A DNA stretch of 64,000 nt from the NCBI RefSeq assembly GCF_036365525.1, contig NC_090387.1, positions 90,065,691 to 90,129,690 of the forward strand, in the 5' to 3' direction. The position numbers and the translations under genes were made by a program. The notes below the pieces were generated by a model that searched no databases, was not told the origin of the DNA, and was given only the letters and a program-made list of their open reading frames with translations. The DNA comes from Heterodontus francisci. Its lineage: Eukaryota. Shown in pieces: positions 1,566-45,773 of the stretch; within the stretch, counting starts at the first letter, position 1; each line of letters starts with the position of its first letter.

Positions 1566-1679
1566 TCCATGCAGGGCGCAGCCGATGTGATGGCGCCTTA
1601 TGCTGAACTCGAGATAACGAATTCCTTGAAAGCTCCAAGACCAAAGCATCAAGAAAGGACAACGCATGCCCAGATAGGG
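1566..1679 (+). CDS. Penultimate cytoplasmic-tail exon of upstream IgSF receptor gene (gene A); SMQGAADVMAPYAELEITNSLKAPRPKHQERTTHAQIG
   Basis: Acceptor tttgtccttcag, perfect donor GTGAGT at 1680, 114 nt phase 0/0, open. Contains a YAEL motif and aligns by eye with the next exon. Confidence 0.75.
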
Positions 1680-2357: not shown

Positions 2358-2525
2358 ACCAAGCAAAGGACACCTGATGATAAGCTGACTTACGCTACTG
2401 TATATATGTCAGGGTCAAAGAAAACAGCAAAGCCTAATTATAAGGATAAGAGCACGGAGTATGCTCAACTACGGATCGAAAAACAAAGAGCAGACGTTAT
2501 TTACACCGAACCGAAAGCCACGTGA
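2358..2525 (+). CDS. Terminal cytoplasmic exon of gene A with ITIM (LTYATV), ITSM-like (TEYAQL) and VIYTEP motifs
   Basis: Acceptor ttgatttcacag, phase 0. Translates TKQRTPDDKLTYATVYMSGSKKTAKPNYKDKSTEYAQLRIEKQRADVIYTEPKAT* (TGA 2523-2525). Confidence 0.85.
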   Translation, partial: TKQRTPDDKLTYATVYMSGSKKTAKPNYKDKSTEYAQLRIEKQRADVIYTEPKAT

Positions 2526-34330: not shown

Positions 34331-34376
34331 ATGTCTATGTGTCAATGCGTGTGGGCCCTGGGGATTATTTACGAAG
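34331..34376 (+). CDS. Candidate proximal leader exon of gene B (MSMCQCVWALGIIYE, phase 1)
   Basis: 46 nt, 190-bp intron to the V exon, upstream Ets (CACTTCCT 34103) and CCAAT (34144) motifs. The donor AAG|gtgttc is weak. Confidence 0.3.
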
Positions 34377-34566: not shown

Positions 34567-34878
34567 TTACTTCCGCTACCGTCTCGCAAACTCCTGAAAG
34601 TACCAATGTGTTGGCCGGTACAGATGTTACTTTTCATTGCAAGGCGAGCTCTGTTCAGAATAATTTAGACGTGCTTGTTTATTGGTGGAGACTTGGCGAC
34701 AATGACTTACTACAATCAGTTTCTGACGGCAGAAAACAATTCTTTCCTTTTAAAAACGGAACGGCTTCCTTTCAGATCCTCAATGTCCGGTTCTTCGACT
34801 CTGGATGCTATTACTGCGGCGTGGGATACACAAGAAACACGATCGTAAATGGAACCGGATCGAAACTTGTCGTGCTCG
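34567..34878 (+). CDS. Gene B: V-set Ig domain exon with germline-joined J-like G strand
   Basis: ttttacag acceptor, G|gtaagc donor, 312 nt phase 1/1. TVSQTP..VTFHC..VYWWR..ASFQILNV..DSGCYYC..NGTGSKLVV. Confidence 0.93.
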
Positions 34879-38462: not shown

Positions 38463-38771
38463 CATCCCCAGAACCCGTGAGACTGATCCCCAAAGAGTCC
38501 GGAACCAACTCATCTGCTCGAACCCTTGTGTGTGAAACGGCTGAGTTCTATCCGGAGTCTCTCACCTTCACTTGGTATGAAAATGACACCAACATTGTGT
38601 CGGAAATCAGCACCATTAAAAAGCTCAATTCGGAGGGAATGTATGAAGCTTCCAGCATCTTGAGAACGACACAGCCAGCCCAGAGCAGGACTGTGTATAC
38701 GTGCGTGGTGTCTCACCTCACGCTGCAGAGTCCAGCCGTGGCTGTTTACATTGCCTCCAGTTCTAACCCAG
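38463..38771 (+). CDS. Gene B: C1-set Ig domain exon
   Basis: ttccacag acceptor, G|gtgaga donor, 309 nt phase 1/1. TLVCETAEFYPESLTFTW..N.EGMY.ASS.L..YTCVVSH.TL (C1-set signature). Confidence 0.93.
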
Positions 38772-39465: not shown

Positions 39466-39579
39466 GCCATGGACATGTGCCCCTTTACCTCCTGATTTCT
39501 GGATGTGCAGGAACGTTAGTGATATTTCTAGCCCTCGTTACTTTCATTGGGAAGTGTTGCCAACTCAGTATCCGCAAAG
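39466..39579 (+). CDS. Gene B: transmembrane exon GHGHVPLYLLISGCAGTLVIFLALVTFIGKCCQLSIRK
   Basis: ttcttatag acceptor, G|gtaagg donor, 114 nt phase 1/1. About 23-aa uncharged hydrophobic stretch followed by K/CC/RK. Confidence 0.88.
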
Positions 39580-39749
39580 GTAAGGAGTCAGCGTATGTAG
39601 CTTCCTTGTGATACATTGCTAATGACCAAACAAACAACATGACGCCAGAGAAAATTTTGGGAATTGAACTGTGTTGAGATGTTAAGCAGCTGTAATTAGT
39701 TCCACAATCTGAAACAAATAAATTGTCCAACAGTCAGTCAAATCAACTT

Positions 39750-41700
39750 CAACATAAGAACATAAGAAACAGGCGCAGGAGTAGACCATTCGGCCCCTCG
39801 AACCTGCTCCACCATTCAATATGATCATGCTTCAACTCCATTTTCCCACCCGCTCCCCAAATCCCCTCATTCCCTGCGAGATCAAAAATCTATCCATCTC
39901 AGTTTTGAACATACTCATCGATGGAGCATTCACAACCCTCTGGGGTAGGCAATTCCAAACATTGAGAACCCCCTGTCCTCATCTCAGTCCCAAATGATCG
40001 ACCCCTTATCCAGAGGCTGCACCACCATGTTCCAGATTCCCCAGCCAGGGGAACCAATCTCTCAGTGTCTACCCTGTCAAGCCCCTGCAGAATCGTGTAT
40101 GTTTCAATGAAATCACTTCTCATTCTTCAGAACTCCAGAGAGTATTGTCCAATTTACTCAGCCTCCCATCATTGCACAATTCTCTCATCTAATGAACCTA
40201 TCTAATGAACCTTTGTTATACCATTAACAAGGCAAGCATATCCTTCCTTAGATTATGGAGCCCAAAACTACGCTCAGTACTCCAGATTTGATCTCACCAA
40301 GCCCTATACTATTGCAGCAAGACTTCTTATTCTTGTACTCCAGTCCCCTTGCAATAAAGGCCAGGATGCAGCTTACCTTACGAATTGCTTGCTGTACCTT
40401 CATGCTAACTTTCTGTATTCCTTGTATGAGTACAGCCAAGTCTTTGTGAACATTAACATTTAAAAGTCTCATGCCTTTTAAAAATATTCTACTGTTCTAT
40501 TCTTACTACTAAAGTGAATAACCTCACATTTACCTGTATTATACTCCACCTGTCACCTTGTTGCCAACTCAGTAAATCTGTCGATATCTCTTTGTAGCCT
40601 TTTTGTGCCCTCCTCACAGTCTACATTGCCACCTAACTTGTTAACATCAGCAAACGTAGATATGTTACTTTCCATCTCTTCAGTAAGTCATTAATGCTGA
40701 TTGTAAATAACTGAGGCCCCAGCACTGATCCTGGCGGCACTCCACAAGTTAAACCCTGCCAACTTGAAAACATCCCGTTTATCCGTACTCTCTGCCTCCT
40801 GTCAATTAACTAATCCTCCATCTGTGCTGATATATTATCCCCAACTCCATGAGTCCTTATATTTATCGAATTCGGTTGAAAATGCAACTACAATCCATCT
40901 ACTGGTTCCCCTTTATCCACCCTACAATGTAAATCCTCAAAAAAGTCTAATGAATTTGTTAAACGCGATCTCCCTTTTGTGAAAACCATATTGAAGTTGT
41001 CTGATCATGCTACAACTTTCTAATTGCACTGTTAAAACTTCCTTAATAATAGATTTCAACATTTTCCCGATGGCTGATGTCAGGCTAACTGTCCTGTAGT
41101 TCAGTTGTTTTCTCTTCCCTTCCTTTCTTGAATAGCTGCGTTACATTTGCTAATTTTGAATCTGCTGGGACTGTTCTAGAATCGAGGGAATTTCAGAAAA
41201 TCATAACAGTACATCCACTATCTCGGCACCAACCTCTTTTAGTACCCTTGAATGTAGGCATCCAATCCTGGGGATTTTTTAGCTTTTAGTTTCTTAGGTT
41301 TCTCTTTTTTTCCACTGATATTAATTATCATAGGTTTCTCATGCGTATTAGCCCTTTGGTTACCCTCTATTTCTCGTATGTCAATATGCCTCCCACTGTG
41401 AAGACAGACACAAAATATTTGTTCAACATCTCTGCCATTTCTTTATTCGCTATGATAACTTTTCCTTTCTCTGCCCCTGAGGGATCAATGCTTCCTTTGG
41501 CTACACTCCTTTTATATACATGTCAAAGCTCTTACAGTCTGCTTTTATATTCCTGGCCAGTTCACACTTATGTTGAATTTTCTCCCCTTTTTATTGATTT
41601 TTTTGTCGCCCTTTGCTGGTTTCTAAAACACTCCCAAGCCTCAGATGTACTATTATTCTTTGCAACATTATAAGCCTCTTCTTTTAATTCAGTACTATCC
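39750..41700 (-). mobile_element. CR1 LINE fragment
   Basis: MRSDFIETY.IL.GLDRVD, QQAIRK..ILAFIARGLEYK peptides; CR1 tail at about 39755. Confidence 0.85.
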
Positions 41701-42127
41701 TTAATTCACCAAAGAAACCATCAAAAATTTAAGAGGTGTTCATGTGCATTTTGTTGCCATTTTGATGATGTTTTGTAGTTTTGAATCAGTGATCCCCTGT
41801 ACTATGGGGCGAACACATTTCAGGAACTCTAACATTAGATTTTGTTTTATGAACTGTGATCCTCAATGCGGAATTGGTTGAGACAAAGTTGGATTTCCCT
41901 GCATCCCGTGGTTCACTTCTTAATGTATGATCAATATTTGATTTACATTTCATTCGCTGCCTACGAAAATAAAGAAGGCCCAAGCCACTTCAAAGAACAG
42001 ATGCGGTTCTCTACTACATTTTCAAAAATGTTCAAAGTATAATATTATCAGGAATGTTATAACAAGCGTATTTAAATTATGTGCCATATACAATTATTAT
42101 GTGCCTGATTTATTGCTAAATGTTTAG

Positions 42128-42159
42128 GTGCACGAGGAACCACCGGAGAACATCAATAA
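42128..42159 (+). CDS. Possible short cytoplasmic exon of gene B (GARGTTGEHQ*)
   Basis: tgtttag acceptor. In phase 1 it stops at TAA after 10 codons. No supporting donor seen. Confidence 0.25.
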
Positions 42160-42199
42160 ATTCCCATCAGTCTCAGTACCTGCTTTAAACAGTCCACGT

Positions 42200-42620
42200 C
42201 ATGTACAGTACGGGTTAGATGCTGACCGCAGTTCCCTCGACACTATCGCACCAAACACACCGAGAACAGGTGCAACACAGTTTTGTTACAAAATGAATCT
42301 CCCTCAACACCGCCCTGTCAAAAACTCCCGGGGCAGCTGCAGTATAGGTTAGATACAGAGTAAAGCTCCCTCTGCACTGACCCATCAAACACTCCGAGGG
42401 CAGGTACAGCACGGTTTAGATACAAATGAATCTTCCTCTACACTGCCCTGAAAAACTCCTATGGCAGGTACAGTATGGGTTAGATATAACAAAGCTCCCC
42501 CCACACTCTGATGAAACACTTAGGGACAGTAAAGAAGGATTAAGTACAGAGTAAAGTTCCCTCAAGCACTTCTAGAGGAGTTACAGCACTAGATACAAAA
42601 TGAACTTTCCTCCACCCTGG
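42200..42620 (+). repeat. Degenerate tandem repeat, unit about 65-70 bp (..gggttagatacagagtaaagctccctct.cactg.cccatcaaacactcc..ggcaggtacag..)
   Basis: About six recognisable, diverged units. Confidence 0.8.
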
Positions 42621-42914
42621 CCTATTAGTAGATGCAATGCTAGTGTAGACTGATATCCCATTACTCTGTTGCAATAAATTGGGTGAAGCCCCTCCCTATG
42701 CTAAATGCCACCATTAGTCCATACTATTTTCTCCCCAGCCTCTCGCTGACTACTCGCTAAATTCGCTGCCGCAGATTGCTAATTCGTCAATGTTGATTTT
42801 TAGTTCATTGTACATTTGATGCTGCAAGCCAGAACACGATGAGTTAGATTAATATTGTCGAAGAAGTGCAATCATCTATCAATGCAAGTCACAGAAAAAT
42901 CGTAGGTCCCATAC

Positions 42915-43410
42915 AACAACAACAACAACTTGTATTCACATCTGGCCCTTTACGTAATAAATCACCCTTCACAGGAGCGTTATCAAACAACATTTGTCAC
43001 GGAGTCAAATAAGGAGACATTAGGACGCATATCCAAAACTTAGTGAGATAGGTTTTAAGTAACGCATTAAAGGAGGAAAAATAGGTATAGGGTGGAGAGG
43101 TTTAGGAAGGGAAATACAAAGCTTATGACCACGTCAACTGAATATCAAGGATACTCAATAGGCCAGAAATGTAGAAGCACAGATATCAGAGTGGTGTAGA
43201 GATGGAGCTGGTTGCAGAGATAGACAGAAATGAGGCCATAGAGGGTTTTGAAAACGAGAGTTAGAATTTTTAAATCGAGGCATTGCTTAATCGGAAGCCA
43301 ATGTCAGAGAGAGAGCACAAGGCTGATAGTTGAATGGGACTTAGTGTGAGTTCGTAGATGGGAAGCAAAGTTTTGGATGGTCTCAGGCTTATGGAGGGTA
43401 GAAGTCACTG
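42915..43410 (-). mobile_element. L2 LINE 3' fragment
   Basis: (aac)n tail; reverse-complement similarity to 14800-15200. Confidence 0.7.
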
Positions 43411-44319
43411 TGGAATCTACTTATTGTGGTCTCAATATTGATGAAACATTTGTTGGTATGTCATTGAAGCCATGTATGAAGCACACACTGGGCAAAGTCT
43501 TTTGCACGTATAACATTTTCGGCCATTGGGACCATTTCTCAGCGCGACTCTGCTCGGGTCTGCGCTGCGTCAGCAGGGAAGAACTTCTGGAAATGGGAAT
43601 GAGCACATCACCTCCACATTCGCCGTCTAGTTAAGGGCAGCAGGAGGAACAGAGAAATAGCCAAACGAGAGCGCTCGCCAGCATCTCCACAGGGAGAGGT
43701 GGGTGCTGCTTGAAGCAAAAGGTGAGCGATTGGGCGCCTCAGAATGGAGGCGCTATCAAAAGGCTGCAGAAGTTTCGAAAGTAAAGAAGTCCCAGAGTTG
43801 TTTGCGCCATTAGTGTGGAGAGGGAACCCTCCCACAAGAATGATTTGGGCTGCAGCACTAGCTGTTCCAAACTTGCGGCCCCACAGGCTCAACAAAGTCG
43901 GTTCCAAATGATTGCCGGGTACCGGACTCAGCAACGCCAAGTAAACTAAACTGGTGTGGAAAGATACCCCTTAAGTGCGGCCTTAATTTAATTGATTAGA
44001 TACCTGCTTCCTTGCAGTGGTTGCCGATTCCCAAGGTAACCCGTTGATGGAAAACACGCCTGGAGGCGGAGTTGTTCACTATTTTCTCACCAGCATCACC
44101 ACCCACCCCTCACGCCCACCCCCCCTCCTCTGCACCCCCATATACACTGCCCCTAAAGCCTTCTCCAAGGGGGCGGGGAGATTTCATCCAATGTGAGCAC
44201 AATGCGGTTGGTCATTGAATATAGACGAACATGATGCTGCTTTTCAGTTGTGCTTCATGTATAAATCTGCAAGTCAAATCAAAGCAATGAGCTGACTTTA
44301 AAACTCTTCGATTTTACAG

Positions 44320-44504
44320 AGCATGGAAGCGGCTCATGAAAATACATCCCGAGGATGTAAGCGAAGAGAACAAAAGGTGTAAGCAGGTGGAAAAACAAAA
44401 CAATGAGGAAGGAACTTAGGCTCATCTAACAGAACAAAGAGAGAAACTACCATCATTTAACTGAATCGTTCGGGCCGTATCTATCCGAGTTACGCATGAA
44501 TAAA
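44320..44504 (+). pseudogene. Degenerate cytoplasmic-tail exon of gene B (SMEAAHENTSRGCKRREQKV*…QVEKQNNEEGT*AHL) with AATAAA at 44499
   Basis: ttttacag acceptor, phase 0. Starts SM like the 1566 exon and shares EKQ with the 2358 exon. TAA 44380 and TAG 44417 sit at the Tyr-motif positions. Confidence 0.65.
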
Positions 44505-45773
44505 AAAATGTCAACTGATAGTTCTGTCAATCTCAAGTTCAAATAGGACCTGATTGAAAACCATAATAGGATCAGACACCAAGGCTCCTATTAGGCGTTC
44601 CATCTGAGGCGTCAACCTAGCTTTCACTTTCAGATGCCGATCTCTCTACAGTTTATTTCTCGTTAATTGTAATGTTTCCTTTGTGTTTATATCAACTATA
44701 TGACGTGTTTTCGTGACGCCCTATCTAAGGCGACAACTACTAAAGTGTATACTGCAAAGAAAACAAGCGTGAAATTCTGATTTTAGAGAAATCCAGTTCA
44801 TGTTAATGCTGTTCCTTGCTAGTATTATTTAATTTACTCGTCAGTGAGTAAATTCTAGAATCACAGAAGCGTAGAATCGTACAGCACAGAGGTCATTCGA
44901 ACTACTGAATCAACACAAACTGTTTCAAAGAGAAATCCAGTCACTCTCACTCCACAGCTTATTGTTGTAACACTTTCTCATTCAAGTATTTCACCAATTC
45001 CTTATTGAAGTCCGCTATTTTTTTCAGGAACCGATCAGACGGTGTATTCCAAAACCTAAGCACTTGAGGCGCAGAAAATTTCTTCATGTCACCACTGCTG
45101 CTTTTGACAGTCACATTAAACCTTTGCCCTCAGCTATCGAACAGTCAGTCATTGGAAACAATTTCACTTTATTTACTTTAACACCTCATTACTTTAAACA
45201 CGCTCTCAAATTTCTCCTTGGCCTCTCTGCTCTAAGGAGAAAAGAAACAGCTTCGCCAGTCCATCTATGTAACTGTAATTCCTCATGTCTGAAATCAGAA
45301 TAGCAAACATATTCTGTAACCTCTCTGAAGCCTTCACGTCATTACTAGAGCGTGGTGCGCAGAATTTAACACAATACTGCAGCTCTGGCTGAACTAGTGT
45401 TTTATAACTGTTTAAAATATTTATTGTTCGACAAAGGGCGAGCGAACGGCGAGGAGGTGGTCGAGCGGAGGGGCGGAGACAGCCAGCGGGGAGCCGAGAG
45501 GCGAGCACGGGGAGGGAGTGGGGGGAAGGAGGGGGGAGTAAACGGCGAGCAGTCGGGCGCAGGAGGGAGCTGCGCGAGGGACCGCGAGCAGTCTGGAGCG
45601 ACGAATGGAGAAGCAGACATTGAAGACGCAATGGGGTTTGCTGCTCAAAGGCACCGGTGTGCGCCACCTAATGGTGACGTTGTCAGCAAACGCGTCCTTC
45701 CAATTTAAGCATGTCAGCCCTGCAGAACGAAAATCATCTATTTATGCCAACCATATTAAACTCATGCCTTCTT

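What the first reader, a model, noticed from the sequence alone, without database searches (positions are those of the whole stretch)
44320..44504. Gene B tail has lost every tyrosine motif: paired inhibitory/decoy receptor or early pseudogene
Seen: relative to the gene A exons, the first Y-motif block is missing. The second reads V-TAA-(frameshift)-QV-EKQ (compare EYAQLRIEKQ), and the third reads GT-TAG-AHL (TYAxL pattern). Both stops are single-base neighbours of TAT/TAC. The V, C1 and TM exons stay open, and the TM has no charged residue for a DAP12/FcRgamma-type adaptor. Inference: a non-signalling receptor, analogous to SIRPgamma, beside an inhibitory twin. This fits birth-and-death evolution of a paired-receptor cluster.
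Basis: partly seen in the sequence, partly recalled or inferred. Interest (0 to 1): 0.7.

Follow-up and report, generated by a model that had tools for sequence, protein, structure and literature searches.

The report
Ancient short-tailed shark immune receptor
This shark gene is spliced into an antibody-like surface protein with a predicted inner tail of only 15 residues, its old 'off-switch' exon survives only as decayed untranslated sequence, and its counterparts in other sharks and rays also lack the switch, so it is likely an old, working, non-signalling receptor rather than a dying gene.

Summary
Gene B (leader, V, C1, TM) has a tyrosine-free tail, but not for the reason given. Contigs of three probable RNA runs (one sample) splice the TM exon straight to 44320. 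The exon is then read one base off its ancestral frame and stops at TGA 44337 (...IRKEHGSGS). The TAA (44380) and TAG (44417) lie in the 3' UTR. The exon is a real fossil of the family's ITIM exon: its acceptor region is the best match among 35,262 sites. The better-scoring register puts only TAG on an old Tyr (motif 2); the TAA sits in a heterozygous 10-nt indel. The body of the fossil aligns only weakly. Gene B is not gene A's twin (V 43% identical). It belongs to a clade with sevengill shark, catshark, smooth-hound, sawfish and skate genes, all without tail motifs. The sevengill gene stops exactly at the first Tyr codon, and dN/dS against the nearest paralogue is 0.37. It is likely an old non-signalling member, SIRP-gamma-like in role only, not an early pseudogene. 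RefSeq already models the protein; the scan found the family before on other DNA.

The parts
34331..34376 (+). Gene B leader exon (ATG to donor)
   Evidence: Exons joined give the 266-aa protein P0001 (XP_067906082.1); similar leader in paralogue B2
34567..34878 (+). Single-exon VJ-type V domain (G strand NGTG)
   Evidence: Open frame; Pfam V-set E 2.3e-9; its 3' end is the loose end spliced to C1 in run X5
38463..38771 (+). C1-set domain exon
   Evidence: Pfam C1-set E 2.2e-13; joint to TM exon in 3 runs
39466..39579 (+). TM exon, no charged residue in the core, ends in phase 1
42128..42159 (+). Skipped piece, possibly the relic of the small first tail exon (would read GARGTTGEHQ-stop); not used in the contigs seen
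   Evidence: Skipped by the 39579-44320 joint; starts GAR like the sevengill orthologue's exon, but homology was not established
44320..44339 (+). Coding part of the last exon: E H G S G S, stop TGA 44337-39
   Evidence: Joint; translation; identical end of P0001
44340..44470 (+). 3' UTR holding the decayed tyrosine-motif exon: motif 1 deleted, TAG 44417 likely the old motif-2 Tyr, 44455-69 likely the old motif 3 with a 1-nt loss; heterozygous 10-nt indel at about 44375-84
   Evidence: 10/12 and 12/15 identities to gene A's motif-2 and motif-3 contexts, fewer to other paralogues; indel
44471..45159 (+). Rest of the 3' UTR as far as a contig reaches (AATAAA 44499 passed; ATTAAA 45115)
   Evidence: Contig 44318-45159 in X5, to 44715 in X1; signals; contigs cannot show true ends
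1566..1679 (+). Gene A internal tail exon with one Tyr motif (comparison only)
2358..2525 (+). Gene A last exon with three Tyr motifs (comparison only)

Best explanation
Gene B is a spliced, open V-C1-transmembrane gene whose protein ends 15 residues after the predicted membrane helix with no tyrosine, and it likely works as an old non-signalling surface receptor that binds a ligand or partner outside the cell without recruiting SHP phosphatases or an ITAM adaptor itself. Shown: the TM exon (phase 1) is joined straight to the last exon at 44320, which in intact paralogues is entered in phase 0; the one-base offset gives EHGSGS and a stop in the last exon. Inferred: the small phase-1-to-0 exon between them was dropped; a stop in the last exon would escape nonsense-mediated decay (established rule); the remainder became 3' UTR and decayed; the loss of signalling likely predates the shark-ray split, possibly starting as a Tyr1-to-stop change still seen in the sevengill shark. 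Ligand, cell type and function are untested.
For: Joints C1-TM-44320 with GT..AG ends in 3 of 3 probable RNA runs, 0 of 1 DNA run. Joined exons equal RefSeq XP_067906082.1. Clade of 8 proteins from 7 species, SH-aLRT 99, all 8 without a tail motif (quick tree; tails). V/C1 identity to sevengill 69/78, catshark 65/76, sawfish 56/72, gene A 43/43. Sawfish tail DHERKS-stop is compatible in the shifted frame with 6 of 7 residues of the sevengill in-frame exon start; 2 of 5000 control peptides reach that. A skate protein from an assembled public run ends QEDH like the RefSeq skate model. Tyr1 is codon 12 in 12 of 12 paralogue exons, and the sevengill protein stops at codon 12. dN/dS of V+C1 against B2 is 0.37, bootstrap 0.23-0.60, dS 0.27. 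Shark-ray split 306 Ma (PMC3692497, abstract).
Against: All RNA support is from one sample, as contigs, and 'RNA' is the tool's guess; rare isoforms would be dropped. RefSeq may rest on the same reads. Tails of other species are gene models and differ (catshark, smooth-hound, thorny skate, B2); the smooth-hound TM has a Lys. The tail loss could be convergent: the sevengill keeps the small exon, horn shark and rays skip it. dN/dS is pairwise and averages over B and B2. The window gene itself matches the sevengill peptide at only 3 of 7 in the frame test (759 of 5000 controls do as well). The fossil body is not significant by profile. No protein or ligand data.
Confidence: 0.68

Rival explanations
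1. The protein is not a receptor in its own right but the ligand or invariant partner of the cluster's ITIM and Arg-TM members, as CD200 is for CD200R or CD94 for NKG2.
For: Short motif-less tail kept across sharks and rays in one or two copies among the hits, while gene A-type copies multiply locally. CD200 is described as invariant with a short non-signalling tail (PMC3653949, passage). Databases label two orthologues 'NCR3 ligand 1-like', a label by similarity only.
Against: The lineage is no more conserved than its relatives: horn shark to sevengill V identity 70-73% against 66% for an ITIM lineage and 68% for a second short-tail lineage. The Ig-pairing aromatic of the G strand is replaced by an N-glycan sequon (N110), which argues against Fab-like pairing (inference).
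Confidence: 0.15
2. Decoy twin of gene A: it shares gene A's ligand (self or microbial) and soaks it up without sending the inhibitory signal.
For: Lies next to gene A in a cluster with ITIM and Arg-TM members. SIRP-gamma competes with SIRP-alpha in this way (PMC12975943, passage).
Against: V identity to gene A is 43%; a real pair in this family (chimaera ITIM versus Arg-TM) is 100% V and 96% C1. Among 42 V matches in the genome the nearest is the motif-less B2 (82%), then 54%. Separate clades.
Confidence: 0.08
3. Early pseudogene: the tail broke recently and the ectodomain has not yet decayed.
For: Decayed tail exon with a segregating indel; other cluster members carry broken exons.
Against: Correct splicing of all coding exons seen, dN/dS 0.37, short tails in ray and shark orthologues. 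Other haplotype: 0 differences in 423 exon bases against 7 in 1,082 intron bases, not significant (p = 0.2).
Confidence: 0.05
4. A minor isoform or a non-tyrosine signal (juxtamembrane Cys palmitoylation, an adaptor) still lets it signal.
For: Cys-Cys after the TM; Lys in the smooth-hound TM; contigs hide rare isoforms.
Against: No tail-type exon found between gene B and the next gene by a DNA profile or tblastn; no other joint from the TM exon among the joints shown (11 weaker rows not shown).
Confidence: 0.04

Closest known systems
RefSeq XP_067906082.1 ('immunoglobulin lambda-1 light chain-like', Heterodontus francisci)
   Same: Identical 266-aa protein, same short tail, contig of the same length
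   Different: The label is by similarity only; no note on the fossil exon, orthology or role
SIRP-gamma (SIRP family)
   Same: VJ-type V plus C1, very short motif-less tail, no charged TM residue, sits among ITIM and charged-TM relatives (PMC12975943 passages; PDB 4i2x hit E 1.1e-14)
   Different: One C1, not two; not a close copy of an inhibitory sibling; far older as a lineage (SIRPG is primate-specific, PMC12678352 start of abstract); CD47 binding untested
Non-rearranging VJ-C1 genes (PRARP, NKp30, UrIg/UrIg2)
   Same: V and J-like strand in one exon with GxG, followed by C1 (PMC10751288, PMC11599192, PMC12227049 passages; PDB 9dmx hit E 3.9e-16)
   Different: One C1 and a short tail, member of a cluster with at least 42 V exons; orthology and synteny not tested
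CD200 / CD94-type non-signalling partners
   Same: Short motif-less tail beside a paired-receptor family (CD200: PMC3653949 passage; CD94 tail: recalled)
   Different: No binding evidence; homologous to the receptors themselves; not more conserved than its relatives

Membership tests
Cartilaginous-fish V-C1-TM receptor cluster | V + one C1 + TM exon plan, homologous ectodomain, clustered | tested here: met
   (42 V matches on one contig)
Cartilaginous-fish V-C1-TM receptor cluster | Tail exon homologous to the family's tyrosine-motif exon | tested here: met
   Acceptor anchor best of 35,262 sites; body alone not significant
Paired receptor (as twin of gene A) | Ectodomain very similar to an opposite-signalling sibling (PMC3533184) | tested here: not met
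   43% V and 43% C1 to gene A; control pair 100/96%; nearest paralogue also motif-less
SIRP family | One V plus two C1 domains (PMC12975943) | tested here: not met
   One C1 only; C1 is spliced to the TM exon
SIRP family | SIRP-gamma-type short tail with no motif and no charged TM residue | tested here: met
SIRP family | Binds CD47 | not testable with these tools
   Needs a binding assay
Non-rearranging VJ-C1 genes (PRARP, UrIg, NKp30) | V and J-like G strand (GxG) in one exon, followed by C1-set | tested here: met
   NGTG in exon 34567-34878; Pfam C1-set
Non-rearranging VJ-C1 genes (PRARP, UrIg, NKp30) | Orthology or linkage to MHC/antigen-receptor paralogous regions | not tested
   Flanking non-family genes were not mapped; Ohta 2019 could not be read
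Pseudogene | Broken or unspliced coding exons, neutral evolution | tested here: not met

The most novel reading that the evidence does not exclude
A shark receptor lineage switched off its own inhibitory tail before sharks and rays split (about 300 Myr), first by turning the first motif's tyrosine into a stop and then by skipping an exon, kept the dead ITIM exon as readable 3' UTR ever since, and now serves as the built-in self ligand or invariant partner of the inhibitory and activating receptors of its own cluster.
Probability: 0.13. Interest if true: 0.72.

Novelty: new variant of a known kind. Interest (0 to 1): 0.38.

Why it matters
It shows that this large, little-described shark receptor cluster has a stable third class beside 'brake' and 'trigger' members: an old, low-copy lineage without a signalling tail. 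Such a member is a good handle for finding the family's ligand. It is also a clear case of how an inhibitory receptor is silenced (stop at a motif tyrosine, exon skipping, old exon left as UTR). The protein is already modelled correctly in RefSeq and non-signalling members of receptor families are well known, so the surprise is moderate.

Tried and rejected
1. Protein profile of 37 family tail units against the old-frame reading: not significant, 150/1000 shuffles. 2. Anchored DNA profile: not significant, 70/300 and 60/300; nhmmer with a 20-exon profile did not report the fossil at E<=10. 3. Pairwise DNA: best 2/500 among 22 references, weak after multiple testing; with flanks 7/1000 to the closest paralogue, exon only 208/1000. 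4. The 42128 piece as the lost small exon: tied for first among 291 AG sites on three residues only, DNA anchors did not pick it; left as a possibility. 5. A fossil last exon behind B2: none found. 6. A close DNA paralogue of 44200-44600 in the genome: only itself, 1 candidate scored. 8. No run on record as RNA was listed; three were guessed as RNA. 9. Complex prediction of B's V domain with gene A's V domain: no verdict, score 0.00, alignments not used; no evidence either way. 10. The careful tree search did not finish; the quick tree was used, one row (P0068) skipped. 11. Literature: searches found no paper on this cluster or this lineage; Ohta 2019 is not held, Fu 2019 was not looked up, both may describe shark VJ-C1 genes; no supplements were read. 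12. Earlier scan notes by place and by sequence: nothing.

Full report
Setting. The window lies on contig C17 of a 6.0-Gb genome. The V exon of gene B is identical to a database protein labelled Heterodontus francisci on a contig of the same length. The V exon has 42 matches in the genome, all on C17 (a lower bound). Within about 385 kb round the window there are five gene A-type copies, gene B, a paralogue B2 (V 82%) and one opposite-strand gene whose TM carries an Arg. Many family proteins have tails with several tyrosine motifs, others an Arg in the TM, others short plain tails.

Gene B's structure. Leader 34331-34376, V 34567-34878, C1 38463-38771 and TM 39466-39579 are open. Contigs of three runs that the tool guesses to be RNA (X1, X5, X6; one sample) join C1 to TM and TM to 44320 with GT..AG ends; the DNA run X2 shows neither joint. 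The piece at 42128-42159 is skipped. The TM exon ends in phase 1, so the last exon reads E H G S G S and stops at TGA 44337-39. The joined exons give the 266-aa RefSeq protein XP_067906082.1. The tail after the predicted helix is 15 residues with no tyrosine. Contigs continue past AATAAA 44499, to 44715 and 45159; an ATTAAA lies at 45115, but contigs cannot show ends.

Is the UTR a fossil ITIM exon? Its start is. The ITIM-bearing lineage next to the B clade in the tree (sevengill P0012) has a horn-shark member at C17:92.57 Mb whose last exon begins SMERRDDNTLDY; gene B's exon read in the old frame begins SMEAAHENT. A 58-nt window round that acceptor picks 44320 alone (35/58) among 35,262 AG sites on both strands of 264 kb. 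The body is much weaker: it does not beat shuffles in a protein profile (150/1000), a DNA profile (70/300) or the exon-only pairwise test (208/1000). I scored three fixed registers. With 5 references and 5 gap settings the counts were 17, 5 and 1 of 25, with 2 ties. The references are related, so these are not independent votes. In the favoured register the TAG context matches gene A's motif-2 context at 10 of 12 bases (6 to 8 of 12 for three other paralogues), and 44455-69 matches gene A's motif-3 context at 12 of 15 with one base lost (7 to 9 of 15 for the others). The TAA is then out of frame. It also lies in a 10-nt indel: contigs of X1, X2 and X7 lack it and X5 has it, so the animal is heterozygous; the protein is unaffected.

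Age. Database searches gave relatives in six other species. In a quick IQ-TREE tree of 55 ectodomains, B, B2 and the sevengill, catshark, smooth-hound, sawfish and two skate proteins form one clade (SH-aLRT 99; the careful search did not finish). Gene A lies elsewhere. V/C1 identity of B is 69/78 to sevengill, 65/76 to catshark, 56/72 to sawfish and 43/43 to gene A, whereas a true ITIM/Arg-TM pair in the chimaera is 100/96. All 8 clade members lack tail motifs. The sevengill protein keeps the small exon, enters the last exon in frame (TMKETVENRLL) and stops at what would be codon 12; Tyr1 is codon 12 in 12 of 12 paralogue exons checked. Its DNA was not seen, so Tyr-to-stop is inferred. The sawfish tail DHERKS-stop has the length of EHGSGS-stop and is compatible, one base shifted, with 6 of 7 residues of the sevengill exon start (2 of 5000 controls). 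Gene B itself reaches only 3 of 7 in that test (759 of 5000). The little-skate model and a protein from an assembled public run both end QEDH. Sharks and rays split about 306 Ma (PMC3692497, abstract read). A single early loss is the simplest reading; convergent loss is not excluded, and several tails are gene models only.

Selection. Against B2, V+C1 have dS 0.27, dN 0.10, ratio 0.37 (bootstrap 0.23-0.60), averaged over both branches. The second haplotype differs at 0 of 423 exon bases and 7 of 1,082 intron bases (p = 0.2). The lineage is not more conserved than its relatives (V 70-73% to sevengill, against 66% and 68% for two other lineages).

How it likely works. Shown: splicing, stop position, motif-free tail, uncharged TM core, exon homology at its start, clade membership. 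Inferred: surface display, ligand binding by the V domain, lack of direct signalling, escape from nonsense-mediated decay because the stop is in the last exon (established rule, recalled), and the order of events. The best reading is an old non-signalling member that acts by adhesion or by tuning ligand availability, like SIRP-gamma in role (0.68). Rivals: ligand or invariant partner of family members (0.15), decoy twin of gene A (0.08), early pseudogene (0.05), hidden signalling (0.04).

Known systems and novelty. It works like SIRP-gamma but fails SIRP membership on domain number (one C1) and fails the paired-twin test with gene A. It meets the structural definition of non-rearranging VJ-C1 genes; synteny was not tested. 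Papers seen: PMC10751288, PMC3533184, PMC12975943, PMC11599192, PMC3653949 (passages); PMC12227049 (abstract, outline, passages); PMC3692497 (abstract, outline); PMC12678352 (search listing with start of abstract). Searches found no description of this cluster or lineage, but Ohta 2019 was not held and no supplements were read. The scan noted the family 19 times in at least 11 genomes; none of the 8 notes shown describes this short-tail lineage. Verdict: a real feature, read wrongly in its details; a new variant of a known kind; interest 0.38.

Noticed in passing
window 1566-1679 (+): Gene A has an internal tail exon with one more Tyr motif (APYAEL) before its last exon, so four tyrosine motifs in all.
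   Followed up: partly
G000:C17:90036100-90039900 (-), about 26-30 kb before the window: Opposite-strand family gene with an Arg in the TM and a short tail (matches P0038), an activating-type member.
   Followed up: partly
G000:C17:90168339-90180240 (+), 38-50 kb after the window: Paralogue B2 (XP_067906087/88): 82% V, also motif-less; no fossil last exon found behind it and one model ends in unrelated sequence.
   Followed up: partly
L036 (G000:C17:89340195): A second short-tailed, uncharged lineage (sevengill P0016, 68% V to this locus; P0057), near the gene A clade: tail loss seems to have happened more than once in the family.
   Followed up: no
G000:C17:90133861-90137300 (+), just after the window: Gene A-type copy with a divergent TM and no A-type tail exon found; it may match P0098, which has one short motif.
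   Followed up: no
L057, L059, L061, L077, L041: Several cluster members have broken tail or V exons (deleted first motif, stops, Tyr replaced), so tail decay is common in this cluster.
   Followed up: no
P0013/P0017 and P0044/P0084: Near-identical ectodomains on long Tyr tails versus short tails (Arg-TM in P0017): true pairs exist in the family.
   Followed up: partly
window 44375-44384: 10-nt indel between two AGGTG direct repeats; both alleles appear in probable RNA contigs of the same animal.
   Followed up: yes
L072 (G000:C15:32.50 Mb) and L079 (G000:C1:84.01 Mb): Weak, broken family tail-like exons on other contigs (E 0.7-0.9).
   Followed up: no
window 42200-42520 and 39750-41700: A very abundant tandem repeat and a LINE-like fragment lie in the intron, on either side of the skipped piece.
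   Followed up: no
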